Shown here: piece after piece, positions 6,915 to 48,196 of the stretch | How positions within the stretch are numbered: position 1 is the stretch's first letter | Layout of the letters: every line of letters begins with the position of its first letter | Source of the DNA: an uncultured delta proteobacterium | GTDB taxonomy: Bacteria; Myxococcota_A; UBA9160; SZUA-336 | Direction of reading: 5' to 3' | Length of the DNA: 64,000 nucleotides | Assembly: GCA_963704165.1 (NCBI GenBank) | Contig: CAVPHD010000002.1 | Coordinates: 64,001-128,000 of the forward strand | Made by a program: the position numbers and the translations under genes | Notes under the pieces: generated by a model | What the model saw: only the letters and a program-made list of their open reading frames with translations | Databases searched by the model: none | Told to the model about the DNA's origin: nothing

Positions 6915-6923
6915 GCCGCGCGA

Positions 6924-11791: not shown

Positions 11792-11872
11792 GGCGAATCC
11801 GAACGTAGCAGAGGCCGGAATCGCCGCCGTTCTCGCCCGACGCCGACGCGCCGGTTAGATTCGTGACCCCGC

Positions 11873-14748: not shown

Positions 14749-14852
14749 GCGTTCAAGCGCTCCTTTCGCGCGGGGTATACCACGGGGGGCCGGTAGGGCA
14801 AGCCTTGGGCCGTCCGGGCAACTTCTCGAAACCCCGTTGATTTAACAGAATG

Positions 14853-15629
14853 CTACTTATCGGAACCTGAAATCGGGACGTCGGCGGATGCAGCTCCGAG
14901 CTTCATCTGCTCGATGCCGATCCGCGTGATGACGCCCTGTTCTTCCGCGATCTCCGGTGAGCTCGAGAGCGCCTGCTGATAGGCACCGATTGCGCGTGCC
15001 GGGGCTCCCGCGCGCGAGAAACAGTCGCCCGCCTCGATCCAGAGCAGAACGTTCGCTCGGTAGGCCTCGATCCGCGCGCCGGCTTCGTAGGCTTCGGCGG
15101 CGGCGAGCGGATCTCCGCTCTGATCGAGGACGAAACCGCGCAAGCGCAGCGCCACCGCGCGGCGTGCGTCATCGGCGGCGAGCGAAGCTGCGAGCGCCTC
15201 GAGCCGCTTGTCCGCAGCCGCGAGATTTCCGAGGCCGGTCTCGAGCTCGGCCGCACGCAGCCGCGCGATCTGTGCGGCGTCGCTCGAGCCGCGTTCCGCG
15301 ATGAAGGCGTCGAACTCGATCACGGCCTGTTCGCGCGCCTTTCTCGCCTGATCCGCGTTGGCGGGCTCGCTGATGAAGGCCTCGTCGCTGGTCGCTCCCA
15401 TGGCCCGAGCGAATCGAGCCTCGATCGCGGCGAGCTCCGTCTGAGCCGCCAGACGACTTCGCGTCTGCCACTCCCAGACCCCGGCGATCGCGCCCCCCGT
15501 GACCAGGAAGATCGCGATCCCGATCACGATCTCTCGCCCGTGCGAGTTGGCCCACTCGAAGCCGGCCTGAATCCGGGCTTCGAAGCCAGCCAGCCGAGTT
15601 TCCGTGTCGCCGTGTTGCTGCTGAGCCAT
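14853..15629 (-). CDS. TPR membrane protein (YfgM-like)
   Basis: Single TM then TPR helices; adjacent to der. Confidence 0.7.
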   Translation of the reverse strand: MAQQQHGDTETRLAGFEARIQAGFEWANSHGREIVIGIAIFLVTGGAIAGVWEWQTRSRLAAQTELAAIEARFARAMGATSDEAFISEPANADQARKAREQAVIEFDAFIAERGSSDAAQIARLRAAELETGLGNLAAADKRLEALAASLAADDARRAVALRLRGFVLDQSGDPLAAAEAYEAGARIEAYRANVLLWIEAGDCFSRAGAPARAIGAYQQALSSSPEIAEEQGVITRIGIEQMKLGAASADVPISGSDK

Positions 15630-17055: not shown

Positions 17056-17157
17056 CTTGGCGCCACTCCAAACTAATCCCGTGCGGTCACTGGTTGACAC
17101 AGCTCGCGGTTTTGGGCGAGGCTCGCACGGTTCGCTTCGTCGGGGAGGGTCGGTTCG

Positions 17158-30904: not shown

Positions 30905-31243
30905 ATGGCGACCCCGTCCGGCATCGAGCGACGCCGCCTCCGGCGCGTCATGAAGCGAATCCCCGCCGCCTTCGAAGCGGGCAAGCTGCGGGGCAAGGGG
31001 CACATCAAGAACATCTCGAAGGAAGGGCTGTTCGTGCGCACGAGCGTGCTGCCCAGCGCGGGCACCCCCGTGCGAATCGTCTTCCACGACCGCCACGGCA
31101 GCAAGGTCGAAGTCCACGGCACCGTCCGTTGGAGCACCGCGCAGCTTCCCCCCGCGGAGAAGGCCAAGCCGGGCTTCGGCGTCTACATCGAGCCGGGCAA
31201 CGAAGAGTTCAGCGAGTTCTTCGAGCACATCCTGACCGGCTGA
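30905..31243 (+). CDS. PilZ domain protein
   Basis: ERRRLRR (RxxxR) and NISKEG. Confidence 0.85.
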   Translation: MATPSGIERRRLRRVMKRIPAAFEAGKLRGKGHIKNISKEGLFVRTSVLPSAGTPVRIVFHDRHGSKVEVHGTVRWSTAQLPPAEKAKPGFGVYIEPGNEEFSEFFEHILTG

Positions 31244-31311
31244 GCCGCCGTTCGCCGCCGATCGGCACGACCACGGACCGCGCACGGGACCGCGTCTCGG
31301 CTCGCCTCCGC

Positions 31312-31358
31312 GTCCCTCTACCTCGGGTGGATGGAGCGGCTGCGTTCTGGTCCGTCGG
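31312..31358 (+). repeat. Decayed 5' half of tRNA-Arg plus element end (putative outer att junction)
   Basis: 37/47 ungapped identity to 41124-41170; coincides with switch from core to accessory genes. Confidence 0.75.
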
Positions 31359-31511
31359 ATCCGTTTCGCTCCAGATCTCTGGCGCTTCGCCCGCGCGTCG
31401 CTGGGCCAGAAGTCGCCGAACGACTTCGAAAGCAGCGGTACGGAGCGGACAGTTCCCGCTAGCGCGGAAGTGTCCACGTAGGCGCGGCCACTGCAGACGA
31501 TCTCTGCGCGA

Positions 31512-32465
31512 TCAGGACTGCAGTCGAGACGCGAAGCGATGGAGCGCGCGAGCGAGTGTCGACCTGAGCCCCTTCCGGATTCGTTGGCGCGTGGGTGAAG
31601 TGACCTCGCTGACGGGCCAACCGTGACTGGGATCGCCAATGGGTAGCATTCCAGGCGTGGCGAGTTCACGCATGAACGAATCGTGGCGCGCCTGTAGTTC
31701 CGCCAGGAAGAAGGCGCGCTTGGCCACATTCACGTGGAGACGATAGCTGTCGCGCATCGCGCTGCCGTTCCTCGAGAATTCCGCGCGGTCCGTGACGAAG
31801 TGCGGAGTGCGTGAGCCTGCCCCCAGATGAAAGACCAAGTCAGCGTAGATGCCGCACATGACCGGGTGCGGGTCCCATGTGTTCGTGCGATACAGCGGTG
31901 CAAAGCTTCGCCCTTCTTGCCGAAGCTGCGCCTGAATGCCACTTCCCGTTTCCTGCGGGCGATTGACATCCCCGCTGTGTTCGTCCGCGAAGCGGGCACG
32001 TTGCGTGACGCTGAAGGAGCTCTCACCTGCCTTCCAGAATTCACGTGTCAGAAAAGTGAGCGCTGGGAAGGGGAAGTTGTCGCCGATTTCGGCGCGCACC
32101 ACCGATGCCACGGGCACCTGCTCACTCACGAGTCCTTCGCACACGGTGTTCCAGTCATCGCGAATGGGCCATGAATCCATGTCGAAGGTGGCCACATGGC
32201 TGCAGCCCTCAGCGAACGCGTGATCAACCAGTCGATCCAGATAGTGAGCGTGCTCAGCTCTCCCCGTCTTGGGGGACGGGGCGATCTCCGGTAGTTCGAC
32301 GCCTTCTCTGTGAAGATGTGCGATCTGGTCGTCACTGAGGCGAAGTGCGCAGCCATAGACGCGGTATTCACCTCGAGTACGAAGCTTGATCTGGCGGATG
32401 GACAGCGGGAGCAGGCACGCACTCTCGGCGTCCTGCACCAAGTAGATCACGCAGATTCCGAGCAC
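31512..32465 (-). CDS. Hypothetical protein, possible GT-A glycosyltransferase
   Basis: VATFDMDSWP DxD-like motif; downstream of NDP-sugar enzyme; start uncertain. Confidence 0.5.
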   Translation of the reverse strand: MLGICVIYLVQDAESACLLPLSIRQIKLRTRGEYRVYGCALRLSDDQIAHLHREGVELPEIAPSPKTGRAEHAHYLDRLVDHAFAEGCSHVATFDMDSWPIRDDWNTVCEGLVSEQVPVASVVRAEIGDNFPFPALTFLTREFWKAGESSFSVTQRARFADEHSGDVNRPQETGSGIQAQLRQEGRSFAPLYRTNTWDPHPVMCGIYADLVFHLGAGSRTPHFVTDRAEFSRNGSAMRDSYRLHVNVAKRAFFLAELQARHDSFMRELATPGMLPIGDPSHGWPVSEVTSPTRQRIRKGLRSTLARALHRFASRLQS

Positions 32466-33727
32466 TCGAAGTTTCCCAACAGCAGCGAGGTGAGACCGCG
32501 CAGCTGGATCGCGATGAGGTTCGAGTTCGCAAGCAGCCATTTGAGCTCGGAAACGCGCAGCCACACGCCCGGTGCCTCGTCGGTCGGCGAGGTCATGACG
32601 AGTTCGTAGCGGCTGACATCGCAGAAGAAGCGTCCGCCCTCATCTGACGCGGCGGTCCGCAGAAGCACTTGCCCGCTCGGCGCCTGCTCTGTCGAGAGGG
32701 TGCCCGGGTAGCGCAGATAGCTGGGTAGCAGCGCCTTGCCGGTCTGCAGGCCCGACTCCGCGCCGATACGCACACGCACTTCAAGAGCGTCCTCCTGCAT
32801 GCGGCAAGCCAGGACGGCCTGACCATCGAAGCGACTGTTGACCAAAGGCTGATACCAGGAGCCGACTTCACGTCCACGTGCGGCTACGAAGAAATAGCCG
32901 AGATCGAATCCCTGTCGGCGTTCCCGTTCGTGGATGCCATTCGGAGAGATCTCCCAGTTGTCCAGCCGACCGATGTCCCTGAATCGGTAGCGGGCGATCG
33001 GCCCTTGGAGTTCCGTCAGCACCGCGCCCAGGCGTTCCGCTCTCACGGGAAGCTGCAGGCTGGCCTGGACCGCCGGTTCAACGGGCCGCAGTTGGCCCTC
33101 TCCAGGTTCGTCCCAGGCGCACACCGCCAGCAGTGAGCACAGGTCGATGTTGAAAAAGGTCGGCTGGCGGATGGCCTGGCTGATGACACGGGCCGCAACC
33201 CAGACGAAGCCCTCTTCCTGCGCAATGTCATGGGCACATTCCGCGACGATCAGGCGCTTGCTCTTGAGCAGGTAGCGCTCTCCGAGGTCAAGCTGCATGG
33301 AGTCATGCAGAATCCTCACGCTCGGTGTGCAGGTCGTAAACCGGTCGACATAGGCGGTGGCCTTGCCGCCGTGGGCTCGAAGATAGTTGGCCGGCGTGCT
33401 CTGAAGGGTCGGCCCGTATTGAGCCTGACCGGGCGTGCCGGGTTCGACTCGAGCTTGCAAGAGAAAGTGGCGTTCACCGTCCATCACGGTGGTCAGCAGC
33501 CCAGTGATCGCCGATTGTGGCTGAAAGAGGAGGATCGCCTGCTTGCTCTTCAGGTCGGGGAATTCGACGCCCGCCACACTGAAGAAACCGCCCGAGCGAT
33601 GCGAAAGCGCACCCTCGTGGAAATGCCAACCCTGCATGTCGGCCCACGTGACGGCTTCGACCGAAAAGCCACGTTTGCTCTGATCGAGCCACGCCTGAAG
33701 TCGGGGGAGAGAGGTCACGACCTGCAT
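32447..33727 (-). CDS. NDP-hexose 2,3-dehydratase family protein
   Basis: HRSGGFFSV.G, LLQARVEPG, PTLQST.ANY, SDEGGRF; two-repeat architecture. Confidence 0.85.
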   Translation of the reverse strand: MQVVTSLPRLQAWLDQSKRGFSVEAVTWADMQGWHFHEGALSHRSGGFFSVAGVEFPDLKSKQAILLFQPQSAITGLLTTVMDGERHFLLQARVEPGTPGQAQYGPTLQSTPANYLRAHGGKATAYVDRFTTCTPSVRILHDSMQLDLGERYLLKSKRLIVAECAHDIAQEEGFVWVAARVISQAIRQPTFFNIDLCSLLAVCAWDEPGEGQLRPVEPAVQASLQLPVRAERLGAVLTELQGPIARYRFRDIGRLDNWEISPNGIHERERRQGFDLGYFFVAARGREVGSWYQPLVNSRFDGQAVLACRMQEDALEVRVRIGAESGLQTGKALLPSYLRYPGTLSTEQAPSGQVLLRTAASDEGGRFFCDVSRYELVMTSPTDEAPGVWLRVSELKWLLANSNLIAIQLRGLTSLLLGNFECSESA

Positions 33728-33864
33728 GGGTTGCTGCGCACCGTGTCGCACCGCCTCGCCGCTTCCCACCGCGTCACCGGTGACACAATCTGAAAGAACC
33801 GACCCTCCGCGAGCCTTCTCTCGCGCAGGCGTATCCCGCCTTCAGACTCCAAGGCCACGCAGGG

Positions 33865-34024
33865 TGCACGAACGGCGAGATCGATACAAGGTCGTCGTCG
33901 GTCGGTGTGCGCACGCGAGCCTGAGCAACCTGACGTCGACGGAGTTCGCGAAGAGAACGTAAACAAGGAGCGCGGAGCGAGCCGTTTTCTGGGAATCCTT
34001 GGTTCGATGAACCCAAGCAGGTCA
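33865..34024 (+). mobile_element. Old IS3 (IS407-group) right-end remnant
   Basis: AHASLSNLTSTEFA resembles RPHSSLGNRTPEEFA; ends GGTTCGATGAACCCAAGCAGGTCA like the IRR of the IS at 46962. Confidence 0.6.
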
Positions 34025-34073
34025 CGTCGCCGATGCGCCTCGAAAATCTGCCCACTCCCGCAAGCGCCTGTGA

Positions 34074-35081
<1,008 letters not shown>

Positions 35082-36107
35082 ACGCGGTGCGCGCGCGCGT
35101 ACGCTTGCTGATGGGTGCCGCTGGTGTCCTCACAGGCGGTATGGCGATCTGGCTTGCGGCGCGCGCGCCGGACGAGACGCGCGCTGGGCCCGCGCGGGAT
35201 CACGCTCCCGCGCGGGCCGCAGCGCCGTCCGTACTGCGCGACGCGCCAGCGATCTCCGAACTTCCTCCCCTGCCCGCGTCGCTCGCCGGGACCCGCCCGG
35301 ACGGCGTGCTCGTGCGCGACACCAACGGGCGCTTCGTGCCCACGCGCGACGCGCTCGATCTCTTCGACTACTTCTTCTCTGCGAGCGGCGAGGAGCCCGA
35401 TGCGCAGATCCGCGCGCGCATCGAAACCGTCATCGCCGAGCAGCTCGATGACCCCGCCCCGGCGCTCGATCTGCTGGATCACTACCTCGGCTACCGCGCG
35501 GAGGCGCGCTCTCTCTTCACGGATGAGAACACCGCGGCACTCCCGCTCGAGCGCCGGCTCCAGCGCATCCGCGAACTCCGCCGCGCGCATTTCGGAGATC
35601 TCGCGGAGGCCCTGTTCGCAGAAGAGGAAGAACGCTGGCGCGCGGACATCGAGCGCCTGCACGTGCTGCACGAACCCGCGCTCTCCGACGAGGAGCGCGC
35701 CGCGCGGCTCGCGGCGCTGGACGCGGAGCTGCCGGAGTCGGTGCGCGAAGCACGCGACGCCGCCACGGCCGCGTCGAGCCTGCGCCACGACGAGGAGCGG
35801 CTGCGCGCCGAGGGTGCTTCCGATGCGGAGATCGACGCGCTGCGCGAGGCGCGCTTCGGTCGCGAGGCTGCCGAACGCCTGGCCGCACTCGATCAGGCGC
35901 GCGCCGCGTGGCACGCGCGTGTGTCGGCGTACCGGGCAGAGCGCGAGCGCGTGTCCGCCCTCGAGCCGGACGACACGGTGGCCCGAGCCGCCGCCATCGC
36001 CGTGCTCCGTGAGGCGCACTTCCACGGCGCGGAGCGCTTGCGTATCGAGGCGCTCGAACGACTGGAGGCGCAAGCGGCAGCGTCTGCGAACGCCAGCGCG
36101 GCGAATC

Positions 36108-36974
<867 letters not shown>

Positions 36975-37002
36975 ATCGCCATCGGCGAGATCGTGCGAGA
37001 AA

Positions 37003-38019
37003 TCAGCGCTTGCGCCCACTGACTCGGACGAGGATGCCCGGGATGAACTCGTGGGCCTCCACCTCGTCAAAGCCAGCCTCGACGAAATAGCCGATACAGT
37101 CGCTGCGCGTGTGGGTGGTTCCCGTGCTGTTGGACAGCGCTTCGAACAGCCCCCAGAGTGCGGCGTCGGCAGGACCCGCGCGATCGTCGTCCAGCATCTC
37201 GCCGATCAGGTGCATCTCACCATGCGGTCGTAGCGCGTCGTGGGTTCGCGAGACGACACGTTGGATGACGTCGCGACCGTACTGAGGCAGATTGCTCGCC
37301 ATCACGGCCACGTCACAATCCTCGGGCAGCGGGTCCCGGGTGAAGTCGCCGGCCTGCGCGCTCACCCTGTCCGCGACACCATGCTTCTCGATGTACTCGC
37401 GACACACGACCGCGACCGGCGGCAGATCGAACACGACCGCGGAGAGCCCCGCAAACTTCTGGACGGCCACGATCGAGTAGGCCCCCGAGCCGCCACCCAG
37501 ATCCATCATTCTCTTCCGGCCGGCAAGGTCGACTTCGCGCGCGAAGCGACGCCCGGCGCCGAAGCCGATGCTGCTCGTGGCTTCGTGGTATCGGCGGGCC
37601 TGCTCGACGGTCATGCCTTCGTAGTCGCCGAGGGGCCGCGCGGGCGAGTCGTTCCTCAAATGACGTGCGAGCTCTCCCCAGCGGTTCCAGTCCCGGCTCG
37701 TGAAACCCAGCCAAGCGGCGGAGTAGCGGGGCTCTCCTTTCACGAGGAATCGGCTCACGTCGTCGGCGTTCCGATAGCGCCCGCGATGCCAGGTCAGCAG
37801 CCCGGTGGCGCTGCACATCGTCATCAGCCGGTCGGCATTCAGCTCGCTGATCCCCGCATGGCGAGCGAAGGCCGCTGGCGTGTCGTGTCCGGCCGCGACA
37901 GCGGTGAAGAGATCCAGCTCGATCGCGGCCTTCAGGGCGGCACTCTCGATGAACGCTCGGGCGATCTTCTGGAGACGGACCGTCGTCGGGCGACCCTCTG
38001 TCGAATTGGCGTCTCCCAT
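37003..38019 (-). CDS. SAM-dependent O-methyltransferase with dimerisation domain
   Basis: AAIELDLF, DLGGGSG, FDLP, AGDF. Confidence 0.9.
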   Translation of the reverse strand: MGDANSTEGRPTTVRLQKIARAFIESAALKAAIELDLFTAVAAGHDTPAAFARHAGISELNADRLMTMCSATGLLTWHRGRYRNADDVSRFLVKGEPRYSAAWLGFTSRDWNRWGELARHLRNDSPARPLGDYEGMTVEQARRYHEATSSIGFGAGRRFAREVDLAGRKRMMDLGGGSGAYSIVAVQKFAGLSAVVFDLPPVAVVCREYIEKHGVADRVSAQAGDFTRDPLPEDCDVAVMASNLPQYGRDVIQRVVSRTHDALRPHGEMHLIGEMLDDDRAGPADAALWGLFEALSNSTGTTHTRSDCIGYFVEAGFDEVEAHEFIPGILVRVSGRKR

Positions 38020-38912
38020 CAATCGGTCCCCTCTCCCGCCGACTCGCTCAAGAGGCGGGCGCGCTCGCTGCGGTGGAAGGCATTCCACGAGCTCTCGTTC
38101 TTCGCCGCGGGTGCATCGAACAGAAAGGAACTCGAGCCGTTGCCGACGCCACCATCGACGAAGAGCTCTGTGCCCGTGATGTAGGCTGCCATGTCGCTCA
38201 GCAGGAAGACGACCGCAGCGGAAACCTCCGCGGCGGTTCCGTGGCGCTTCAGCGGGATTCTGCTGGAGATTCTTCGCAGGCTCTCCCAGGCGGCCTCGGG
38301 ATAACGATCGAGGCCGGTGGTATCGATGAAGCCCGGGATGACAGAGTTGACCCTCACGCCCGCGTGAGCCCACTCGCTGGCAGACGTCATGGTGAGGTTG
38401 GCAAGACCAGCGCGGGCCGCGCCGTTGTGCCCCATTCCCGGCATGCCGCGCCTGTAGTCCGCGCCGATGTGAACCATGGCGCCGCCATGCTCAGCCATGC
38501 TCTGTCGATAGACTTCCCGAGACAAGAGGAAGTAGCTCGTCATGTTGTTCTGAATGACGGCATTCCAGCCATTGAGGCTGAGGTCCTCCAGGCGCTTGGG
38601 GAACTGTCCGCCGGCAGCGCTCACCAATCCGTTCAACGGACCACCGGACAGGGTCGCGCTGGCCACCAGGTCGACTACGGATTGCTCGTCGCGAAGCTCC
38701 GCAGCCAGACAGCTGACGACCTGTCCCCCATCCTCGGCAATCTCGTCGCGCGTGCGCTCGAGCTTGTCGAGCGAGCGACCGGCAAGGACGAGTCTTGCTC
38801 CGAGCGATGCGAGCTCGTGGGCGATACAGCGGCCGAGCCCGCCGCCTCCGCCTGCAACCAGAACGACCCGGTCAGCAAAGAGTCCGGGACGAAATCCCGA
38901 CGCGTACGGCAA
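38019..38912 (-). CDS. SDR oxidoreductase (AtuB/trans-2-enoyl-CoA reductase-like)
   Basis: GGGGGLG, AGGQF, H.GAARAG, GVRVN; TTG start after GGAGG. Confidence 0.88.
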   Translation of the reverse strand: MPYASGFRPGLFADRVVLVAGGGGGLGRCIAHELASLGARLVLAGRSLDKLERTRDEIAEDGGQVVSCLAAELRDEQSVVDLVASATLSGGPLNGLVSAAGGQFPKRLEDLSLNGWNAVIQNNMTSYFLLSREVYRQSMAEHGGAMVHIGADYRRGMPGMGHNGAARAGLANLTMTSASEWAHAGVRVNSVIPGFIDTTGLDRYPEAAWESLRRISSRIPLKRHGTAAEVSAAVVFLLSDMAAYITGTELFVDGGVGNGSSSFLFDAPAAKNESSWNAFHRSERARLLSESAGEGTD

Positions 38913-38959
38913 TGTCTTCCCTCCAGGCGCCGCCCGTCGCCCCGTTCGGCGGCTCCGAC

Positions 38960-39190
38960 AAGCGATCCGCGACCCGCACAGATCACAGGCTCGATGTTCG
39001 AATAGCGCATTTCTGCCAACGTCTTTGCGGCGAGGACGGCACTGCCTCCACTCTAGCCGTGGATCACGACGGGATGATCCGAAGCCGAGCAGACCTCGGC
39101 AATCCTGAACTCCAGACGCCCCGTGGAATGTTGGCGGTGGACGGAACCGATGCGCCCTGGAAGCTCTCGCTGAATGGAGTGCGGCGTCCA
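38960..39190 (-). pseudogene. Rhodanese-domain pseudogene
   Basis: NIPRGV/LEFRIAEVC..DHPVVIHG*SGGSAVLAAKTLAEMRYSNI with frameshift and stop in the active-site loop. Confidence 0.65.
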
Positions 39191-39282
39191 TTCGATATTA
39201 GTTGGTCCCGTCGGTCCGTTCCCGATCTGGAGCTTGCCACCGCCTCGCGGTCCGCTCGGCCCCAGCCGTTCTGCAGCCGCCG

Positions 39283-39317
39283 CTCCGGGGTGGAACCGCG
39301 CTTATTTCTCCTATTCT
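39283..39317 (+). repeat. IS91/ISCR oriIS-like end, copy 1
   Basis: 31/35 identical to 44991-45025; CGCGCTTATTTCTCCTAT. Confidence 0.55.
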
Positions 39318-39520
39318 TGAGTCGACGAGCGCCGACGCCTTCTTCTCGCGCCTGGGTCGGCAGGACGACCGCGTCTCGGTCGCGCCTCGCAGGCCTCTGC
39401 ACGAGCCGTCCCCGCAAAAAACTCTGTACAGCGCGGAGTTGGTGTGGTCTTCTACACCCTGGTCATGGTGCTGCCGCGCGTCCGAGCTGGCCCTGTGGCG
39501 GGACTGGAGGGGATTCTCGA

Positions 39521-40273
39521 ATGCTTTCGAAGGCTTGCATGCGAATCGGCCTGGTTGTTCTAGTCGGCTTCCTCGGCCTCGGGATCTCGTCTCGCGCGAC
39601 CGCGGGCTCGATTCTCGACTGTGGTCCGGGCGGCGCCAACTGCTGGATCGAGCTTGCGATCGAAGGAGTCCAGGTCGGGCAGGGAACCTTCGACATCAAC
39701 TCGACCACGGGAGACATCTCGCTTTCGGCGCCGATCACCGGGGAGCTGGGTGGGTCGAGCGTCGCCCTGAACTCCCTGAACGGCAATGCCGACCCGATCC
39801 TCGGCTTCGGAATCGGCGCGTCCACGGGCGCACTCGGGAACGCCTTCTCGATCACCATGACGCTGCCGATCGCGATCACCGGACAGATCATCGCCAACTC
39901 CTCGATCGGCTACAGCCTGACCGCTCTGTCTGGCGCGGGCGCGCAGATCAGCCCGCTCTTCGGAAACGTGCTGCTCGCGCGAGAGGTCGACACCAGCATC
40001 GGCGGGCTCTCGCCCCTGGACAAAGGCGTCGATACCGGCAGCACGTTCTTCTTTCTGGGCGGCCCCGCGACCAACTTGTCGCCGGTCTACACCGCGTCGA
40101 ACACGTTCACGGGCGATCTGCAGTACGACCTGATGAGCGTGACCGTGGCGTTCAGCCTGAGCGCGAACAGCTCGGTGGGCCTGTCGGGCTTCGTCCAGCA
40201 GGTGCCGGAGCCCTCGGCCGTCCTTCTGCTTGCGCTGGGGTTCGGAGCTCTCGTCTTTCGACGGCTGGCCTGA
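39521..40273 (+). CDS. PEP-CTERM sorting domain protein
   Basis: Signal peptide; C-terminal VPEPSAVLLLALGFGALVFRR. Confidence 0.9.
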   Translation: MLSKACMRIGLVVLVGFLGLGISSRATAGSILDCGPGGANCWIELAIEGVQVGQGTFDINSTTGDISLSAPITGELGGSSVALNSLNGNADPILGFGIGASTGALGNAFSITMTLPIAITGQIIANSSIGYSLTALSGAGAQISPLFGNVLLAREVDTSIGGLSPLDKGVDTGSTFFFLGGPATNLSPVYTASNTFTGDLQYDLMSVTVAFSLSANSSVGLSGFVQQVPEPSAVLLLALGFGALVFRRLA

Positions 40274-40339
40274 GGTCCTGCGCTCTCTGACCTGACGCGC
40301 CCGCCGCGCCGCTGATCGTCGAGCTGTGCCGTCGGCAAC

Positions 40340-41133
40340 CCGCGCTCTCCCCCGAAGAAGCTGGTTGCTGAGAACCAGATGGTGACGATCGACCGGCCCG
40401 CGCGCGGCAAGGTGCGCGAGCCGCACATCATGAAGACGGCAGAGGAGGCCCGGCGCTTCCTGGCGGCCGCGCGCGAGAATCGTCACGGAATCGTGTTCGT
40501 GTTCGCGCTCGAGACGGGAATGCGGCCCTCCGAGTGCTGCGGCCTCATGTGGGACGATCTCGACTTCGAGGCGGGCGTCGTTCATGTGCGCCGGTCGCTC
40601 GTACGTTTGCGGGGCGGCGGCTTCGAGCTCGGCGCCTGCAAGACCGAGAAGCCGAAGCGGACGCTGGCCCTCTCCACCCCTCTGCGCGACGAGCTCCGCA
40701 GACACCGCGCAAGGCAAGCCGCGCATCGCCTGCAGCTCGGCCCCGCCTACAGCAGCAAGCTCGACCTGATCTTCGCCGACGAACTCGGGAACCCTCTGCA
40801 CGACCGGGGAACCTGATCCAGCGCGCATTCAAGCCGATCCTGAAGCGCGCAGGACTTCCCTCGAGCATGACGCTCTACGGTCTGCGCCACGCGCCGACTC
40901 TGATGATCCACGCCGGCGAGAGCGTGAAGACGGTCCAGGCGCAGCTCGGCCACTCGGACTCGGGGATTACTCTGCGGGTCTACGCTCAGGCCGTGGCGAA
41001 GTCCCAGGCGGCTGCGCGGCGCGCCTTGGAAACCTTCTGCGCCCTCCCCCCCGATGAGGGTTCTCCGCACGGCGAATCCGCCGCAGTACCCATGCTCCAC
41101 CAAGTTTGCGATTCTGCGCTCGAGTCCCCGTAG
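40340..41133 (+). pseudogene. Tyrosine integrase, N-terminally truncated and frameshifted (~40810)
   Basis: TGMRPSE, KT..R, YGLRH, LGHS..ITLRVY catalytic motifs. Confidence 0.9.
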
Positions 41134-41161
41134 CTCAGATGGATAGAGCGGCTGCCTCCTA
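41059..41161 (+). repeat. 103-bp direct repeat: 65 bp upstream flank plus tRNA-Arg 5' half
   Basis: Identical to 45050-45152; ends in the anticodon loop. Confidence 0.95.
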
Positions 41162-41230
41162 GTCCGGCGGCGCAGTTTCAGTGCGTGACTTCGAGGTTGG
41201 GCACCGTGCAGAATCGACGGCTTGTGAGCG

Positions 41231-41478
41231 TGGCAGGACGGCGCGAACGAATCGTTCAACGGGAAGTTCCGAGACGAGTGTCTCGGCGTGCAGTGGTTCA
41301 AGAATCGGATCGACGCAAAGATCCTGATCGAGGACTGGCGACAGGGGTTCAACAGCGAGAGACCGCACTCGGGCCTCGGCAACCGGACGCCCGAGGAGTT
41401 CGCGAGATCGGTTTCGATCCAACGCCTTGAGAAGGCTGCTTCTTAGGATCGGATGGTCCGACGAAACGCAGCAGGTCA
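41231..41478 (+). mobile_element. Partial copy (3' orfB plus IRR) of the IS3 at 46962-48168
   Basis: Close sequence match to reverse complement of ~46962-47209. Confidence 0.9.
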
Positions 41479-41536
41479 GCTGCGCTTGCTGCCGCTTCTC
41501 GTCGGTATCGCGGCTGCGCTCCGGCGTGCCTGCCGG

Positions 41537-42337
41537 TCAAGAACGTCGCGAGAGCCGATGCCGGAGGATCCAGAGCGCGAGCAGCTCGGGCCGGCTGCGC
41601 ACTCGATAACGCCGGTACAACGCCTTCACGTACTGGTGCATCGTGTGCGGGCTCAGCCCCAGACGGTCCGCCACCTCCTTCTCCGATAGCCCCTCGACCA
41701 TGGCAGAGAGCGTCTGCTCGAGACGCGGCGAGAGCGGCACGGGATCGTGGCTATCGGAGCCCGCCAGTTCGTACCCGATCATCGGGACGAGTTCGCGATG
41801 CAGGAGATCGAGCACCTTCAGGTCGCGCTCGGTCCACGGCCGGTCTCCCAGCCGGCGATGTGCCACCACCGTGTCGAAGTGCCCGTCCGCCGTCTCGTGG
41901 AACGAGCACAGCGAATCGTCGAGGTGCAGTGGTACCAGGTAGTCGTGGTAGTAGGCGGATCCGTAGTGATCCGTATCGGAGATGATCTGCCTGCGGAACG
42001 CCGTCCGGTGCGGCGGCTCGAAGTCCTCGAGAAACCGGTTCATGTTGGGATCGGCCTTGGGTCCCACCCGCGCCATGTACTCGAGCCAGCGCCTGCGCGA
42101 GGACTCACAGTCCCAGCCGTGGTCGACGACCAGGCTCGGCTGGATCGTGCGAGCGGGTAGGGGGAAGCGCCCCGCGCCGATGATGCCGAGAAGGTCTCCG
42201 AGCAGGCGGTCCATGCCGTCGAGAAGGTGACGGCGCCAGAGAAACGCATCGGCCCCGAGCTCCCGGCACTCACCGACCAGCCGGAAGATCTCGCGGCAGT
42301 CGTGCGCGCTGATCAGGGCGGACTTGGACACGGCCAT
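41537..42337 (-). CDS. LuxR-type HTH regulator
   Basis: LSPR..Q.L..GLSEKEVADRLGLSPHT..YVK.LY; GAF-like N-terminus. Confidence 0.88.
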   Translation of the reverse strand: MAVSKSALISAHDCREIFRLVGECRELGADAFLWRRHLLDGMDRLLGDLLGIIGAGRFPLPARTIQPSLVVDHGWDCESSRRRWLEYMARVGPKADPNMNRFLEDFEPPHRTAFRRQIISDTDHYGSAYYHDYLVPLHLDDSLCSFHETADGHFDTVVAHRRLGDRPWTERDLKVLDLLHRELVPMIGYELAGSDSHDPVPLSPRLEQTLSAMVEGLSEKEVADRLGLSPHTMHQYVKALYRRYRVRSRPELLALWILRHRLSRRS

Positions 42338-42534
42338 CCACCTTCCCTCCCAGCACCCTACGCCTTCCGGAAGGCGGCTACCACTTTCTCCCCGGCATCG
42401 CCCCCCGTTCAGGGGAATTGTCGCCCGCGTGCCGTTCTCTGAAGGTGTCCGCACGCAAGCGGATCGAGGACTGCTTGGACTGCGTTGCGCCGTCGAAGCC
42501 AAGAGCGCGACGTACTCACCAGAGGGGAGATGTT

Positions 42535-44679
42535 GTGGACCGCAATCGAACGAGTGAACGATCGACTCTCGCGACCTGGGCCGCGCTTGCCTGCCTCATC
42601 ACAGCTACGGTGGGCACGAGCACAAGCCTGCCCGCCTCCGCGCAGACTACGGACGCAAGAGTTAAGGTGCTCGCCTACCCGTTCGGGGACCAGCCCTCCC
42701 GGGTCGTCACAGAGTTCTACAAGGGACCGGGCACTTGGAGCAGCACCGTCTCGGACATCCAGGCCGGTACCCAGCCCACCGGCAGCTGGAGCTTCAGCGG
42801 CTCGAGCACCGTCGACATGATTGGGGCTGCCGTACAACCCCATGTCACCGTTGGCACATCGATGTTGACGAGCTGGAGTGGATCGAGCTCGGCCCCGATT
42901 ATCAACTCCATCCCCGCGAGCTTCGGGAGAGGCCTTCTGGGTTACGGTGCTCGAGTCCAGCCTGTGGCGGGATCGACGGTACCCTCCTGGGTGACTGGAA
43001 TCCCGGTCAACATGGCGGGCGTGGTCTCGGCCGAAATCGAAATCGAGGCGCTCAATCCTTTGCTGTGCGGCGTTGCAAATGCCGAGGCTTACGCGGTATT
43101 TCGCGACGCCGAGTCCGGTGCCGCAGTGGGCTCTCAAGTCCAGATCGGTACTTACCCGCTCACGACCGAGGCGGTGAGCGACAGCTTCGCGCTGTCGCTC
43201 ACCGTGACATTCCCAATCTTCCAGCGCTCAGGTTTTATCAACGTCGGGCTGTACGCCGAGGCTTCCAACTCATTGCAGCACGCGAGCTGCAACGGAAGCG
43301 TAGGCGTCTACGCCAATGCGGACCCCGTCATCTCGTTCGACCAGGCCGCCTTCGATGCGCTCGCCGCCTCGCTAGGCGAGCAGACCTTCTCTCTCGCATC
43401 CGTCTACGAGATCGTCCTGCCCCCGGGCCTGGGGAATGGCCCCGCCGTCTGCGGCAATGGCACGTTGGACGCGGGCGAAGAGTGCGACGACGGAAACCTC
43501 GAAGCGGGCGATGGCTGCCGGCCCGACTGCACGGAAGAGCTCTGCGGCGACGGCATCCCGGACCCCCAGGAGCAGTGCGACGACGGGAACGACATTTCGG
43601 GAGACGGGTGTCAGGCGAACTGTTCGGGTCCGCGCTGCGGTGACTCGTACCTCGACGTGTTCCGCGGGGAGCAGTGCGACGACGGCAACCTGATCTCGGG
43701 CGACGGCTGCTCCGAGACCTGCGGGGCGGAGATCTGCGGCAACGCGATCGTCGATGCGGGCGAGCAGTGCGATGACGGCAACACCGGGGCGGGCGACGGC
43801 TGCCGGCCCGACTGTACGGAGGAGCTCTGCGGCGACGGCCTGCACGACCCGCAGGAGACCTGCGACGACGCAAACAACGACCCGGGCGACGGCTGTCGGC
43901 CCGACTGCACGGAAGAGCTCTGCGGCGACGGCATCCCGGACCCCCAGGAGCAGTGCGACGACGGGAACGCCATCTCGGGCGACGGTTGCCAGGCGGGTTG
44001 CGTGCTTCCGATGTGCGGCGATGGCGTGATCGACACCGGTGAGGAGTGCGACGACGGCAACCGGACGGGCAACGATGGCTGCTCGGCCAGCTGCGTGGCG
44101 GAGGTGTGCGGGAACGGGATCCTGGATCCCGCCGAGGCCTGCGACGACGGGAACACCGATCCGGGCGACGGCTGCCGCGGCAACTGCAGCGTCGAGGAGT
44201 GCGGAGACGGCACTGTCGATCTCCAGGAGCAGTGTGATGACGGGAACCTGGTGTCCGGGGATGGCTGCTCGGAGACCTGCACCATCGAGACGGCGACCGG
44301 GGGCGACGGCTGCCGGCCGCGCTTCTGGAGGCGGGCAGACGAGTCGTGGCCGGGACCGTACGCGCCACACACCCCCTTTGCCTCTGTGTTCGAGGATGCG
44401 TTCCCGGGCAAGACGCTCGGCCAGGTGCTGCGCCAGCGCGGCGGTGGGCTGCGGGCGCTGGGCCGCCAGACCGTCGCAGCGCTGCTCAACGCGGCGTCAC
44501 CGGAAGTGAGCTACGACCTCTCGGCGGCCGAGGTGGTGTCGAGCTTCAACGGGGCGTACCCGGGGACCAAGCCGGCCTACCGGACACTCAAGTTCAACTT
44601 CCGCAAGCTGAACAAGCAGGGCTGTCCGCTCGTGCCGCTCGACGACGACTGGTGCGAGGACGACGAGGAGGACGATTAG
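42535..44679 (+). CDS. Secreted protein with nine Myxococcus Cys-rich (DUF4215) repeats
   Basis: 9x CGxG...E.CDDGN...GDGC...C; signal peptide; C-terminal VAALLNA domain. Confidence 0.88.
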   Translation: MDRNRTSERSTLATWAALACLITATVGTSTSLPASAQTTDARVKVLAYPFGDQPSRVVTEFYKGPGTWSSTVSDIQAGTQPTGSWSFSGSSTVDMIGAAVQPHVTVGTSMLTSWSGSSSAPIINSIPASFGRGLLGYGARVQPVAGSTVPSWVTGIPVNMAGVVSAEIEIEALNPLLCGVANAEAYAVFRDAESGAAVGSQVQIGTYPLTTEAVSDSFALSLTVTFPIFQRSGFINVGLYAEASNSLQHASCNGSVGVYANADPVISFDQAAFDALAASLGEQTFSLASVYEIVLPPGLGNGPAVCGNGTLDAGEECDDGNLEAGDGCRPDCTEELCGDGIPDPQEQCDDGNDISGDGCQANCSGPRCGDSYLDVFRGEQCDDGNLISGDGCSETCGAEICGNAIVDAGEQCDDGNTGAGDGCRPDCTEELCGDGLHDPQETCDDANNDPGDGCRPDCTEELCGDGIPDPQEQCDDGNAISGDGCQAGCVLPMCGDGVIDTGEECDDGNRTGNDGCSASCVAEVCGNGILDPAEACDDGNTDPGDGCRGNCSVEECGDGTVDLQEQCDDGNLVSGDGCSETCTIETATGGDGCRPRFWRRADESWPGPYAPHTPFASVFEDAFPGKTLGQVLRQRGGGLRALGRQTVAALLNAASPEVSYDLSAAEVVSSFNGAYPGTKPAYRTLKFNFRKLNKQGCPLVPLDDDWCEDDEEDD

Positions 44680-44990
44680 CCGGAGGCTGTCAACGAGTTG
44701 CTCCTCGCCCCATCCAGCCGTCCACGGAGCGGCGGACCACGTCGAGAATCACGGGGCGACGACGGCCAGTTCTTCGACTCGACGCAGCCGTAGCGGGGGA
44801 CACGCCGTCAGGAGCGGAACTCGAGGATCACACCGAAGCGACGGGGAACGCGCAGGAAGCCGTCGCGCCGATCGCAGGGTCGCGGATGAGGCTATGCCGG
44901 TACACCTCGTCCGCCTCAGAGGGCAGATCGTCGGCTTAGGCGTCCGCTTCTACACCGATGAAAGAGGTTACAGAACGCCCGTTGCCGGAA

Positions 44991-45025
44991 CTCCGGGGTG
45001 GAATCGCGCATGTTTCTCCTATCCT
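44991..45025 (+). repeat. IS91/ISCR oriIS-like end, copy 2
   Basis: GAATCGCGCATGTTTCTCCTATCC; matches 39283 and 46231 copies. Confidence 0.55.
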
Positions 45026-45061
45026 CGTTCTCCACAAGGTTCGCCACATGGTTCTCCGCAC
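45026..45061 (+). repeat. Three tandem 12-bp repeats (putative integrase arm sites)
   Basis: CGTTCTCCACAA GGTTCGCCACAT GGTTCTCCGCAC. Confidence 0.65.
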
Positions 45062-45114
45062 GGCGAATCCGCCGCAGTACCCATGCTCCACCAAGTTTGC
45101 GATTCTGCGCTCGA

Positions 45115-45191
45115 GTCCCCGTAGCTCAGATGGATAGAGCGGCTGCCTCCTAAGCAGCAGGTCGTGCGTTCGAATCGCGCCGGGGACGCCA
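45115..45191 (+). tRNA. tRNA-Arg (CCT)
   Basis: 77-nt cloverleaf, GCTGC-CTCCTAA-GCAGC anticodon arm, GTTCGAAT, CCA. Confidence 0.97.
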
Positions 45192-45250
45192 GCAAGTTCG
45201 CGGTTACACCGAACTGCGTTCACTCGGCGGCACCGCGCGGGCCCTTGCTA

Positions 45251-45490
45251 TTAGTGGCCGGCGCCTTTGGCCGCAGCCTGAGCCTGCGCCATCCGCTTCG
45301 CCACTTCCGCCTTCACGGCTTCGAGATCGAAGGACGCACCCTTCTGCATCGGCGGATAGTCGAGGAAGGTCTGAAGCTCCTTCCCCACGACCTCCTGGAC
45401 GAAGACGAAACGCCAGACGTTGTAGACGCAGAAGCTGCCGAAGTATGCTTGCGTCCCGTCCTTGGTTCCGTTGTTCGGCCAGCGCATGCC
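45251..45490 (-). pseudogene. Arylsulfatase C-terminal fragment
   Basis: WRFVFVQEVVGKELQTFLDYPPMQKGASFDLEAVK recalls arylsulfatase C-termini. Confidence 0.55.
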
Positions 45491-45567
45491 GCTTACGAGC
45501 AGATCTACTATTCGTCGCTGGTGCCGCGCACCTACCTCTGCGCCCGTCTGATGGAGACGCTCGACTG

Positions 45568-46188
45568 ATGGCCACGCTCTACCATGTGCCCACCTCACGA
45601 TCGCTGCGCGTGCTGTGGGCCTTGGAAGAAATCGGCGCTACCGTCGAGGTGAAGTCGCTGGGTGCTCGGCCGCGGCTGCAGGAGCCCGAGTATCTCGCGA
45701 TCAACCCGGCCGGCACACTGCCCGCCCTGATCGATGGCGACCGGGCGATCTACGAGTCCCTGGCGATCTGCGAATACCTGGCGGCCCAGCACGGTTCCGA
45801 TCTGATCGTGGCACCGGGCGATCCGGAGCGGCCGGAATTCGTGCAATGGCTGTTGTTTGGCGAAGCGACGCTGCAGGCGCCGCTCTCGGTGATGGCGCGC
45901 GTCGGCCGCATCCGGAACAAGACGCCGGAGATGCAGGCCGGAATCGACGCCGTGCTTGCCGACGCCCGCCACTCGCTCTCGATGCGGCTCAAGCTGCTCG
46001 AGCAGCGGCTGGAAGGCCGTGAGTTCCTGGTGGCGGGGCGGATGACGCTCGCCGACATCTCGGTCGGCTATCCACTCAACAACTTGGGGAAGCCGCACTT
46101 CGCCTCGCTGCTCGGTCCACGGGCCGCCGCCTACCGCGAGCGCCTGCTCGCCAGGCCGGCGTTCCAGCGCGCCACAGCCATTCCCTAG
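45568..46188 (+). CDS. Glutathione S-transferase family protein
   Basis: SRSLRVLWALEE, INPAGTLPAL, ESLAICEYL, TLADI. Confidence 0.9.
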   Translation: MATLYHVPTSRSLRVLWALEEIGATVEVKSLGARPRLQEPEYLAINPAGTLPALIDGDRAIYESLAICEYLAAQHGSDLIVAPGDPERPEFVQWLLFGEATLQAPLSVMARVGRIRNKTPEMQAGIDAVLADARHSLSMRLKLLEQRLEGREFLVAGRMTLADISVGYPLNNLGKPHFASLLGPRAAAYRERLLARPAFQRATAIP

Positions 46189-46230
46189 TCTCGGTTAGGC
46201 AAGCTCTGCCGTGACGGCGCGTGCGGCGTG

Positions 46231-46690
46231 CGGATAGGAAGTACAAGCGCGATTCTGCCGCGGGACTTCCCCGGAAAGGGGTGTTTCTCAACATCCGACA
46301 TCGGTGCAGAAGCGGGCGCCTGAGGCGGCGATCTGGCCTCTGGGCGGCCTCTGGGCGGGCGGCCTCTGAGCGGGGGGATTCGAGCGGCCGGGCTGCGCGC
46401 TGGGTGGGGCGAACGCGGCGGGCCGGGGTCGCCGATTGGGGAGCGCGCTCGGGCTGCGCGGATCCCGTGGCGCGGGTCAGTCGGTGGGTGGCTCGGTGGT
46501 GTCGTCGGCCGGGCCTGCGAGCTCGAAGTCGGGGTCGCAGAAGAGCTCGGCTTGACGGGCCGGGGCGGTTGGGGGCGCGCGACTCGCGAGTCCGAGCGAG
46601 CCTAGGATCGCGGCGGCGATCTCGGGCTGCTCGATCGCGGCGATCACGCGCAGGCCCTCCCCGCGCCACGCCCCGCAACGCGGACCGATC
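46231..46690 (-). mobile_element. IS91/ISCR-family remnant: transposase C-terminus plus oriIS
   Basis: LRVIAAIEQPEIAAAILGSLGLASRAPP; GCGCTTGTACTTCCTATCC end. Confidence 0.7.
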
Positions 46691-46700
46691 GAGCTTCCGC

Positions 46701-46816
46701 CGTAGGCGCTCCGTGGCGCGAAACGTGGCGCGAACTCGGGGACACAGGGCGATACAGGGCGCTACAGCGCGACACTAACTCCGCGCGCTGTTGCGTTCCG
46801 TGTCGCGCTGTTTCGC
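46701..46816. repeat. att-flanking repeat arrays
   Basis: CGTGGCGCGAA x2; 10-bp phased GACACAGGGC/GATACAGGGC/GCTACAGCGC followed by inverted copies. Confidence 0.7.
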
Positions 46817-46827
46817 TTGGCGGTGCT

Positions 46828-46874
46828 CTCGTAAGCAGCAGGTCATGCGTTCGAATCGCATCGGGGACGCTAGC
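46828..46874 (+). repeat. Displaced 3' half of tRNA-Arg
   Basis: 42/47 identical to 45147-45193, starting at the anticodon loop. Confidence 0.9.
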
Positions 46875-46993
46875 GTGGCACTCGACGCCGCCGGAAGTCG
46901 GTCGGGCCGCGATTTCGCTCTACTCGTCGGCCGCCTCGTTGCCGGGTAATTCATGAACTCCTGACCTGCTGCATTTCGTCGGACCATCCGATC

Positions 46994-47842
46994 CTAGAAA
47001 ACAGTCTTCTCAAGGCGTTGGATCGAAACCGATCTCGCGAACTCCTCGGGCGTCCGGTTGCCGAGGCTCGAGTGCGGTCTCTCGCTGTTGAACTCCTGTC
47101 GCCAGTCCTCGATCAGGATCTTGGCATCGATCCGATTCTTGAACCACTGCATGCCGAGACACTCGTCTCGGAACTTCCCGTTGAACGATTCGTTCGCGCC
47201 GTTCTGCCAGGGCTTCCCCGGATCGATCAGCGCCGTCTCGATCTCCGACTTCGCCAGCCATTGCAGAACCGCCCGCGAGACGAACTCGGGCCCGTTGTCC
47301 GAACGCATGTGACGCGGCGCTCCGCGCACGCTCACGAGCTTCGAGAGGACGTCGATCACGCGCCCGGATCGGATGCTGCCTGCCACGTCGATCGCCAGGC
47401 ACTCGCGCGTGTACTCATCGATCACCGTCAGGCACTTCAGCTGCTGTCCGTTCGCGCACGCATCGAACACGAAGTCGTAGGCCCACACGTGATTCGCGCC
47501 GGTCGATGGAATCGGCCGCGGTCGGTTCGTCGCAGCTCGCCGCCGCGGCCGCTTCCGCGGCACCTGCAGCCCCGCACGACGCCAGATGCGATGCGCGCGG
47601 TCCGCGCTCATCACGATCCCGCGCCGCGCGAGGTAGACCAGGATGCGGCGATAGCCGAAGCGCGGATACTGCGCGGAGAGCTCCCGCATCGCCGCCACGA
47701 TCGGCACGTCACGCTGCTCGAGCGTCGACTCGTATCCCATCGTCGATCGCGCCACCGAGAACAGCGCGCACGCCCTGCGAAGCGACACGCCGCGACGTTG
47801 CACGTACGCGACCTGCTCCCGTCGAACGCACGCGCTCACCAT
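46994..47842 (-). CDS. IS3 transposase OrfB (DDE)
   Basis: WAYDF, DNGPEF, PGKPWQNG..ESFNG. Confidence 0.93.
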   Translation of the reverse strand: MVSACVRREQVAYVQRRGVSLRRACALFSVARSTMGYESTLEQRDVPIVAAMRELSAQYPRFGYRRILVYLARRGIVMSADRAHRIWRRAGLQVPRKRPRRRAATNRPRPIPSTGANHVWAYDFVFDACANGQQLKCLTVIDEYTRECLAIDVAGSIRSGRVIDVLSKLVSVRGAPRHMRSDNGPEFVSRAVLQWLAKSEIETALIDPGKPWQNGANESFNGKFRDECLGMQWFKNRIDAKILIEDWRQEFNSERPHSSLGNRTPEEFARSVSIQRLEKTVF

Positions 47843-48099
47843 TTTTTTGCGGCGACCTCGCGCATCACCTCGATCTCGAGGTCGCGCTCCGCCACCAGCT
47901 TCTTCAGCTTCAGGTTCTCGTGCTCGAGCTGCCGCAGCCGCTTCACGTCCGCCGCCTCGAGCTTCCCGAACCGCTTGCGCCAGGCGTAGATCGTCTGGTC
48001 GCTGATCCCATGCTTCTTGGCGACCTCGCCGATCGGGTTCCGATCCGCTTCCCGCAGGATCTTCACCATCTGCTCTTCGCTGAACTTGCTCTTCTTCAT
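47836..48099 (-). CDS. IS3 transposase OrfA
   Basis: MKKSKFSEEQ, HGISDQTIYAWR, LE.EN.KLKKL. Confidence 0.93.
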   Translation of the reverse strand: MKKSKFSEEQMVKILREADRNPIGEVAKKHGISDQTIYAWRKRFGKLEAADVKRLRQLEHENLKLKKLVAERDLEIEVMREVAAKKW

Positions 48100-48196
48100 C
48101 GCTCCCTCTTTGCCCGAGGAAGCCATTTTCGCAGGATTCAAACGGTCCGGAATTCGCCCAGCAATTCACCCGATCGCCGCTGGTATGGTTGCGCCC

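What the first reader, a model, noticed from the sequence alone, without database searches (positions are those of the whole stretch)
41162..45152. 4-kb integrase-less satellite element between perfect 103-bp repeats
Seen: unit carries only an IS fragment, LuxR regulator and Cys-rich secreted protein; begins GTCCGGCGGCGCAGTTTC, matching the start of the older unit GTCCGTCGGATCCGTTTC (31350), and ends in arm-like repeats plus 5' half tRNA. Inference: tandem accretion of related elements; perfect repeats imply recent insertion or conversion and possible excision by an integrase in trans or by RecA.
Basis: partly seen in the sequence, partly recalled or inferred. Interest (0 to 1): 0.7.

Follow-up and report, generated by a model that had tools for sequence, protein, structure and literature searches.

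The report
Integrase-less island stacked before tRNA-Arg
A 4-kb, two-gene DNA block with no integrase lies between two identical copies of the front half of an arginine tRNA gene and its upstream sequence, and it is most likely the worn-down remnant of a genomic island that likely inserted on the uncommon upstream side of the tRNA, a known process rather than a phage satellite.

Summary
The repeat is real: 103 bp, exact, 3,991 bp apart. It consists of one arm-like site, about 53 bp of upstream sequence and the 5' half of the genome's only tRNA-Arg(CCT).

Relatives show the empty site, PilZ gene then tRNA. Here the host's halves lie 15.5 kb apart (decayed 5' half at 31312, host-allele 3' half at 46830), so islands sit on both sides and the working tRNA is probably rebuilt from two foreign halves. 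Another genus (G020) has the same integrase scrap/arm/upstream module.

No cognate integrase, terminase or satellite gene was found (genome 84% complete). The IS3 scrap has decayed 4%, so the perfect repeat does not prove recent arrival.

Verdict: a CIME-like remnant from 5'-side tandem accretion (5' islands are 159 of 3,919 in Islander). 'Satellite' is unsupported. Whether it lost its integrase before or after arrival is open, and no reads were available.

The parts
30905..31243 (+). Host PilZ-domain gene; marks the native left flank of the tRNA
   Evidence: Pfam PilZ; tRNA-Arg(CCT) follows it directly on the same strand in 11 of 19 relatives' loci, 7 of 10 in the genus
31244..31349 (+). Host spacer and decayed host 5' half of tRNA-Arg (31312-31349); oldest left junction
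   Evidence: 29 of 38 identical to the 5' half; spacer matches the native spacer of G007, 0 of 2,000 random windows as good
31350..31410 (+). Start of the older inserted block (inferred P'-type arm); a second similar copy lies at about 39203-39253
   Evidence: 14 of 18 match to the unit start; 39.2-kb copy scores above all 2,000 random windows
31411..40273 (.). Older cargo: NDP-hexose dehydratase, lipase and lipase chaperone, IS scraps, O-methyltransferase, SDR, origin-end scrap 39284-39315, PEP-CTERM gene
   Evidence: Pfam; nhmmer
40340..41056 (+). Broken tyrosine integrase pointing at the att site: N-terminal 140-170 residues absent, frame break near 40810, one residue short after the RH motif
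   Evidence: full-length relatives are 360-400 aa and at most 50% identical in the best 150
41059..41161 (+). Repeat copy 1: one arm-like site (41060), upstream sequence, tRNA 5' half (41124-41161) ending in the anticodon loop
41162..41230 (+). Left end of the unit (inferred P'-type arm), cut by the IS3 scrap
41231..41479 (+). 3' scrap of an IS3-family element, 96% identical to the intact copy at 46961
41537..42337 (-). LuxR/CsgD-type regulator, 266 aa, open frame
   Evidence: GerE domain; 85 other proteins listed, two 67-68% paralogs on contig C3
42535..44679 (+). Cysteine-rich repeat protein, 714 aa, predicted signal peptide, orphan N-terminal domain
   Evidence: DUF4215 and TIGR02232; N-terminal region found only itself; signal peptide by inspection
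44914..45026 (+). Solo origin (oriIS-like) end of an IS91-type rolling-circle element, abutting arm 1
   Evidence: Profile from other genomes' copies, E 5e-27; same end follows a Y2_Tnp frame in G006
45027..45062 (+). Three 12-bp arm-like direct repeats
   Evidence: similar pairs follow the stop codon in 10 of 21 related integrase loci
45050..45152 (+). Repeat copy 2: arm 3, inferred replacement promoter region, tRNA 5' half
   Evidence: 46 matches over about 78 aligned bases to the module of G020, 1 of 2,000 random windows as good
45115..45191 (+). The only intact tRNA-Arg(CCT) in the assembly
   Evidence: ARAGORN; Rfam
45192..46827 (.). Separate 3'-side island remnant: GST gene (45568-46188) and IS91-type transposase tail with origin end (46232-46680, minus strand)
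46828..46874 (+). Displaced 3' half of the tRNA carrying the host-type allele
   Evidence: Matches the allele of G007, G010 and G003 exactly in the T arm, G008 with one change
46961..48168 (-). Intact IS3-family element, probable relative of the scrap in the unit
   Evidence: ends by inspection

Best explanation
The 4-kb unit lies between two identical arm/upstream/5'-half-tRNA modules and is most likely the eroded second member of a tandem pair of islands from one lineage, which a tyrosine integrase likely inserted at the tRNA-Arg anticodon loop from the upstream side. Such an element carries, behind its integrase stop codon, arm sites, a likely replacement promoter and a new tRNA 5' half. 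Each insertion therefore rebuilds the tRNA and leaves the previous module stranded upstream (inferred). Two successive insertions of the same or a sister element give two identical modules (inferred). The first copy was later cut down to the integrase's C-terminal part. The second likely lost its integrase where an IS91-type origin end now abuts arm 1, leaving a CIME-like remnant with two intact cargo genes. Today it would leave only by homologous loop-out between the repeats, or if a cognate integrase arrived. Shown: repeats, gene content, empty site in relatives, homologous module in G020, no cognate integrase in the assembly. Inferred: crossover point, promoter, order of events.
For: Native PilZ-tRNA adjacency in 7 of 10 same-genus loci. 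Host 5' half stranded at 31312. Both junctions break at the same anticodon-loop position and continue with related sequence, 14 of 18. The integrase points at the module and should end about 21 residues after its catalytic Tyr, just before the repeat. Related integrases have 11-12-bp repeat pairs after the stop in 10 of 21 loci; 4 of 21 pass the strict score, against 16 of 1,000 random windows. G020 has an integrase scrap (65% over 20 aa), arms and a homologous upstream region before the same tRNA. The origin end sits exactly where the integrase lies in copy 1. 5'-fragment islands and tandem CIME stacks are documented (PMC4383910, PMC5704250; passages).
Against: No intact member of this 5'-side family was found, so the ancestral map is reconstructed. 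No trace of an integrase remains inside the unit. Copy 1 has one arm and copy 2 has three, which needs an extra slippage step. If the unit is as old as its IS3 scrap (2-4% change), zero differences in 103 bp has probability 0.13-0.016, so later conversion or a younger junction may be needed. No sigma-70 consensus promoter was found in the module. All 7 related integrases with a tRNA within 400 nt use the 3' side.
Confidence: 0.5

Rival explanations
1. The unit arrived already without an integrase, as a non-autonomous cassette that was excised and inserted in trans by the neighbouring (then intact) integrase or a sister enzyme.
For: All three arms are kept right up to the origin-end junction, the left arm is kept, and both cargo genes are open. 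G020 also has an arm-bearing block with no integrase upstream of its integrase scrap. Unchecked earlier notes describe integrase-less 5'-side stacks in other phyla (leads only).
Against: No second copy or second site of the unit in the genome or in 31 family genomes. No helper integrase. No transfer or packaging gene. The decayed IS3 scrap cuts into the left arm region.
Confidence: 0.27
2. Two independent, diverged elements inserted in turn, and gene conversion between the junctions later made the 103 bp identical.
For: Identity stops exactly where homology stops on both sides. The IS3 scrap's decay argues for age. The G020 module is only about 60% identical, so independent modules do diverge.
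Against: Recombination frequent enough to convert the repeats should also delete the unit. There is no direct evidence of conversion.
Confidence: 0.1
3. Rolling-circle capture: a transposase acting on the solo origin end copied 41060-45026 from a circular form of the island and inserted it at arm 1.
For: Removing 41060-45026 leaves integrase end, three arms, upstream region and tRNA, a natural layout. Both ends lie at GTTC, a known IS91-family target and termination word (PMC13181058, passages). Solo origin ends join unrelated gene pieces in relatives.
Against: This origin family shows no common target tetranucleotide in 20 aligned copies. The unit has 21 GTTC words. The model needs a donor with an attP-type junction and a precise hit on arm 1. 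No Y2 transposase domain was found in the assembly (the control rang nowhere).
Confidence: 0.08
4. Assembly artefact: a circle or another strain's allele was threaded through a single 103-bp sequence.
For: The repeat is perfect and the genome is a binned assembly. No independent assembly holds the LuxR or Cys-rich protein.
Against: The two copies have different, biologically sensible flanks: related unit starts and extra arms matching G020. The repeat is shorter than ordinary reads. Twelve contigs and frame splits in 5 of 46 test genes suggest long reads that would span 4 kb (inference).
Confidence: 0.05

Closest known systems
CIMEs (cis-mobilizable elements) and tandem accretion at tRNA genes, as reviewed in PMC5704250 (passages read)
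   Same: An att-flanked unit without integration or transfer genes, stacked in tandem with a decayed integrase element, with a hybrid internal att junction.
   Different: It grows on the tRNA's 5' side and must supply an upstream region. The duplicated stretch is 103 bp rather than 8-60 bp. No conjugative helper is known here and mobility is untested.
tDNA islands with a displaced 5' fragment, Islander class (PMC4383910; passages read)
   Same: 5' fragment upstream of the intact tRNA, anticodon-centred site, tyrosine integrase nearby; 159 of 3,919 islands have 5' fragments and 125 are in tandems.
   Different: Islander requires an integrase in each island and this unit has none. The same tRNA also carries a 3'-side island, so both halves of the working gene are probably imported.
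Miniature right-end fragments of IS801, IS91 family (PMC3189936; abstract and passages read)
   Same: A stand-alone origin end without transposase, also present behind full transposase tails.
   Different: It is shorter (113 bp against 229-679 nt) and has no conserved tetranucleotide at the junctions. It explains one junction, not the repeat.
Phage satellites (P4-like, PICI, cfPICI, PLE, PICMI), definition in PMC11389934 (passages read)
   Same: A small integrated element that would depend on functions supplied in trans.
   Different: No packaging, replication, induction or integrase gene; no terminase found in the assembly; no evidence of a helper phage.

Membership tests
CIME | Has lost integration and transfer genes | tested here: met
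   Pfam, NCBIfam and PHROGs scans of the unit's frames gave only LuxR, Cys-repeat and IS3 hits
CIME | Retains attL and attR | tested here: inconclusive
   Both junctions, arms and a left-arm-like start are present by sequence; the left arm region is cut by IS3 at 41231 and function is untested
CIME | Can be excised or moved with a tandem or incoming element | not testable with these tools
   The adjacent integrase is broken; needs a recombination assay
5'-fragment tDNA island (Islander) | 5' tRNA fragment upstream of and co-oriented with the intact gene, 2-200 kb away | tested here: met
   41124-41161 against 45115-45191
5'-fragment tDNA island (Islander) | Contains a tyrosine integrase frame | tested here: not met
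   None in 41162-45152; a broken one lies just outside. The whole block 31350-45152 would contain it.
5'-fragment tDNA island (Islander) | Empty site in relatives | tested here: met
   PilZ-tRNA adjacency in 11 of 19 relatives' loci
Phage satellite | Encodes genes that favour packaging in helper-phage particles, replication or induction | tested here: not met
   PHROGs gave only an HTH hit and transposase hits for the unit's frames
Phage satellite | Carries a DNA packaging signal recognised by a helper | not testable with these tools
   No helper is known; such motifs are short and unspecific
Phage satellite | Helper phage available | tested here: inconclusive
   PF03354 and PF03237 not found in the 84%-complete assembly, controls rang
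IS91-family one-ended capture product | Origin end at one boundary | tested here: met
   44914-45026
IS91-family one-ended capture product | Family-specific tetranucleotide at the target and termination ends | tested here: inconclusive
   GTTC is at both ends here, but the family shows no common target word in 20 copies

The most novel reading that the evidence does not exclude
The arm/promoter/5'-half module is a portable cassette tag. Integrase-less cargo blocks, loaded with genes by solo IS91 origin ends, are excised and re-stacked upstream of tRNA-Arg(CCT) by visiting integrases. This would be an integron-like cassette system built on a tRNA gene whose two working halves are both supplied by mobile DNA.
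Probability: 0.15. Interest if true: 0.65.

Novelty: new member of a known kind. Interest (0 to 1): 0.3.

Why it matters
It is a clean, precisely bounded case of the uncommon upstream-side insertion. The incoming DNA must replace the tRNA's front half and upstream region, and here the sole tRNA-Arg(CCT) appears to be built from two imported halves. Integrase-requiring island finders miss such units. If they can still be moved in trans they are a hidden route for swapping surface-protein genes. If they are only remnants, this is ordinary decay at a tRNA hotspot.

Tried and rejected
Sequencing runs: none was listed for 40900-45400, so read mapping could not be done.

Search for an intact cognate integrase. 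Family and class searches gave at most 43% and 49% identity. The metagenome scan gave 1 distant locus. The viral scan with the single protein gave none. The viral scan with the alignment gave 80 loci; I examined 10 of them and none showed a same-strand tRNA 5' half directly after the integrase. A motif scan of genome contigs gave 2 unrelated loci. No match in phage records.

Search for other orphan 5' halves or junctions. The 5'-half pattern with a non-tRNA continuation was found in 1 of 225 class genomes, our own. All 36 matches of a looser pattern, in 35 genomes, continue as tRNA. None in viral contigs. Of 4 arm-motif hits in other class genomes, only G020's lies near the tRNA locus; the other 3 have no tRNA or integrase hit nearby and were treated as chance.

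Leads rejected. G026 first looked similar but has no integrase there. The idea that the unit starts are origin-end pieces was not supported by the profile. The junction at 41124-41200 does not fold like a tRNA (z 0.97). No decayed 5' half was significant before 39204 or after PilZ in G020. G023 has an arm-like upstream score of 32 against 22 or less in 27 other loci, which is inconclusive.

Uninformative tests. The in-silico junction counts used probes shorter than the repeat. One of the 12 queries (39523-40270, outside the unit) was in the wrong frame and says nothing. The Atlas look-up of the Cys-rich N-terminal domain gave only unnamed clusters, best 0.92.

Papers. Williams 2002 and Mantri and Williams 2004 are not held. 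Literature searches listed no paper on this locus or lineage; subscription papers are not covered.
Full report
Observation. The 103-bp direct repeat is exact and cannot be extended. It occurs twice in the 3.87-Mb, 12-contig, 84%-complete assembly. It consists of one arm-like 12-mer, about 53 bp of further upstream sequence and the first 38 bases of the only tRNA-Arg(CCT) gene (45115-45191), ending in the anticodon loop. Between the copies lie a 249-bp IS3 scrap, a 266-aa LuxR-type gene and a divergent 714-aa cysteine-rich protein with a predicted signal peptide. The similarity between the unit start and 31350 is 14 of 18 in register (p about 2e-5 anchored). It is not significant unanchored, and 6 of the 18 positions also match the tRNA's 3' half.

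The empty site. In 11 of 19 relatives' best PilZ loci, and 7 of 10 from the same genus, tRNA-Arg(CCT) follows the PilZ gene directly on the same strand. Two others have it convergent and six have none within the locus. In the window, PilZ is followed by a spacer homologous to that of G007 and by a decayed 5' half (29 of 38). A 3' half at 46828-46874 has the T-arm allele of the four relatives closest by PilZ identity (exact in G007, G010 and G003, one change in G008). The intact tRNA has the other allele. I infer that the host's gene was split from both sides at different times, and that the working gene has its 5' half from the 4-kb unit and its 3' half from a separate downstream remnant carrying a GST gene and an IS91-type tail.

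The module. A broken tyrosine integrase (40340 to about 41056) points at repeat copy 1. It lacks its N-terminal 140-170 residues, has a frame break and is one residue short after the RH motif. In related integrases the stop lies about 21 residues after the catalytic tyrosine. It is followed by pairs of 11-12-bp repeats in 10 of 21 loci (4 of 21 at the strict score, against 16 of 1,000 random windows), some with nearly the same motif as here. All 7 of those with a tRNA within 400 nt point at its 3' end, so the window's layout is the mirror image. One other genome, G020 of another genus, has the same layout: an integrase scrap (65% over 20 aa), two arms and an upstream region with 46 matches over about 78 aligned bases before the same tRNA, plus a second arm pair further upstream. 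Among 29 tRNA-Arg(CCT) loci of other genomes it was the only one with a same-strand upstream integrase remnant; three had downstream ones. That the upstream region holds a replacement promoter is inference; the consensus scan found none.

Bases 44914-45026 are a solo origin end of an IS91-type rolling-circle element. A profile built from other genomes' copies hits it at E 5e-27 and finds 8 more copies or scraps at E below 0.1 in the assembly. The same end follows a Y2_Tnp frame in G006. It abuts arm 1 with no gap, at the place the integrase occupies in copy 1. Such miniature ends are known for IS801 (PMC3189936, abstract and passages). The GTTC at the junction matches a known IS91-family target word (PMC13181058, passages), but 20 aligned copies of this family share no target word, so I give it little weight.

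Helpers and satellite status. PF00589 finds five stretches in the assembly: a XerC-like enzyme, an integron integrase, the two halves of the broken gene and one sub-threshold hit. Six full-length related integrases hit only these loci. PF14659, PF07508, PF03354 and PF03237 were not found, with controls ringing. The assembly is incomplete, so this is 'not found', not 'absent'. The unit's frames have no phage hits beyond an HTH and transposase. By the packaging-based definition (PMC11389934, passages) there is no evidence for a satellite.

Age. The IS3 scrap differs from the intact copy at 11 of 249 bases, and 7 of 9 changed codons are non-synonymous, which looks like neutral decay. At 2-4% change, a stranded 103-bp copy would stay perfect with probability 0.13-0.016. 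So the perfect repeat does not date the unit. Either the junction is younger than the scrap, or conversion occurred, or this is chance. The assembly has 36 exact direct pairs of 80 bp or more.

Mechanism. I favour two successive upstream-side insertions from one element lineage followed by erosion (0.5). Rivals are arrival without integrase and insertion in trans (0.27), independent elements with conversion (0.10), rolling-circle capture (0.08) and assembly artefact (0.05). The first three all make the unit an att-flanked, integrase-less island at a 5'-side tRNA site (about 0.87 together). No intact family member was found to fix the ancestral map. Against an artefact: distinct and sensible flanks, a short repeat, and signs of long-read assembly (12 contigs; frame splits in 5 of 46 test genes), the last being inference.

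Comparison. It works like a CIME in a tandem accretion stack (PMC5704250, passages) with the polarity of the 5'-fragment islands that make up 159 of 3,919 Islander entries (PMC4383910, passages). It fails Islander's integrase criterion on its own, and CIME mobility is untested. Earlier unchecked notes of this scan describe similar 5'-side integrase-less stacks in other phyla and solo IS91 ends. I did not test the former, and they are leads rather than support. The label Myxococcota comes from unchecked notes on this genome and the TIGR02232 hit, not from a taxonomy call. No supplements were read.

Verdict. Real, well bounded, uncommon in polarity, but a new member of a known kind. Interest 0.3.

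Noticed in passing
L116 (G007:C103) 2391-2503 and 3997-4109; L117 (G010:C4) 4493-4607, 14821-14935, 16948-17062; L118 (G006:C43) 4340-4447, 6040-6155: Near-identical (97-100%) solo IS91-type origin ends stand in direct orientation 1.6-10 kb apart with a sharp left boundary. In G007 they join fragments of unrelated genes (ABC transporter, molybdopterin enzyme), resembling piecewise gene-fragment capture.
   Followed up: partly
L114 (G000:C3) 4066-13343: A paralogous module at another tRNA: tRNA-Glu, two LuxR paralogs (67-68% to the unit's), a divergent 2,257-aa secreted PKD/CARDB protein and an origin-end scrap at its stop codon.
   Followed up: partly
window 45115-45191 with 31312-31349 and 46828-46874: The sole tRNA-Arg(CCT) appears to have both halves replaced by mobile elements from opposite sides.
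   Followed up: yes
L069 (G020:C16) about 970-1900 and L068 (G020:C111) 270-498: Between PilZ and tRNA-Arg lie a probable toxin-antitoxin gene pair (by inspection, not scanned) followed by an arm pair, then an integrase scrap and a second arm pair: a second decayed upstream-side stack.
   Followed up: partly
L149 (G023:C165), upstream of tRNA-Arg: Arm-like words sit in the short PilZ-tRNA spacer (score 32 against 22 or less in 27 other loci); possibly an excision scar, possibly chance.
   Followed up: no
window 34122-36145: A lipase and lipase-chaperone gene pair as island cargo.
   Followed up: no
window 36266-36376: Rfam ALIL frameshift pseudoknot within a decayed IS3-type remnant.
   Followed up: no
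window 41449-41479 and 45153-45164: The IS3 terminal repeat shares 11 bases with the start of the tRNA's 3' half; probably coincidence, not tested.
   Followed up: no
G000:C8:64661-65263 (L089): An integron integrase over the TIGR02249 cut-off; its cassette array was not examined.
   Followed up: no
window 31413-31495 and G000:C2:59278-59360: 78% similar 83-bp scraps that look like IS3-type left ends (by recall), each near origin-like or junction sequence.
   Followed up: no
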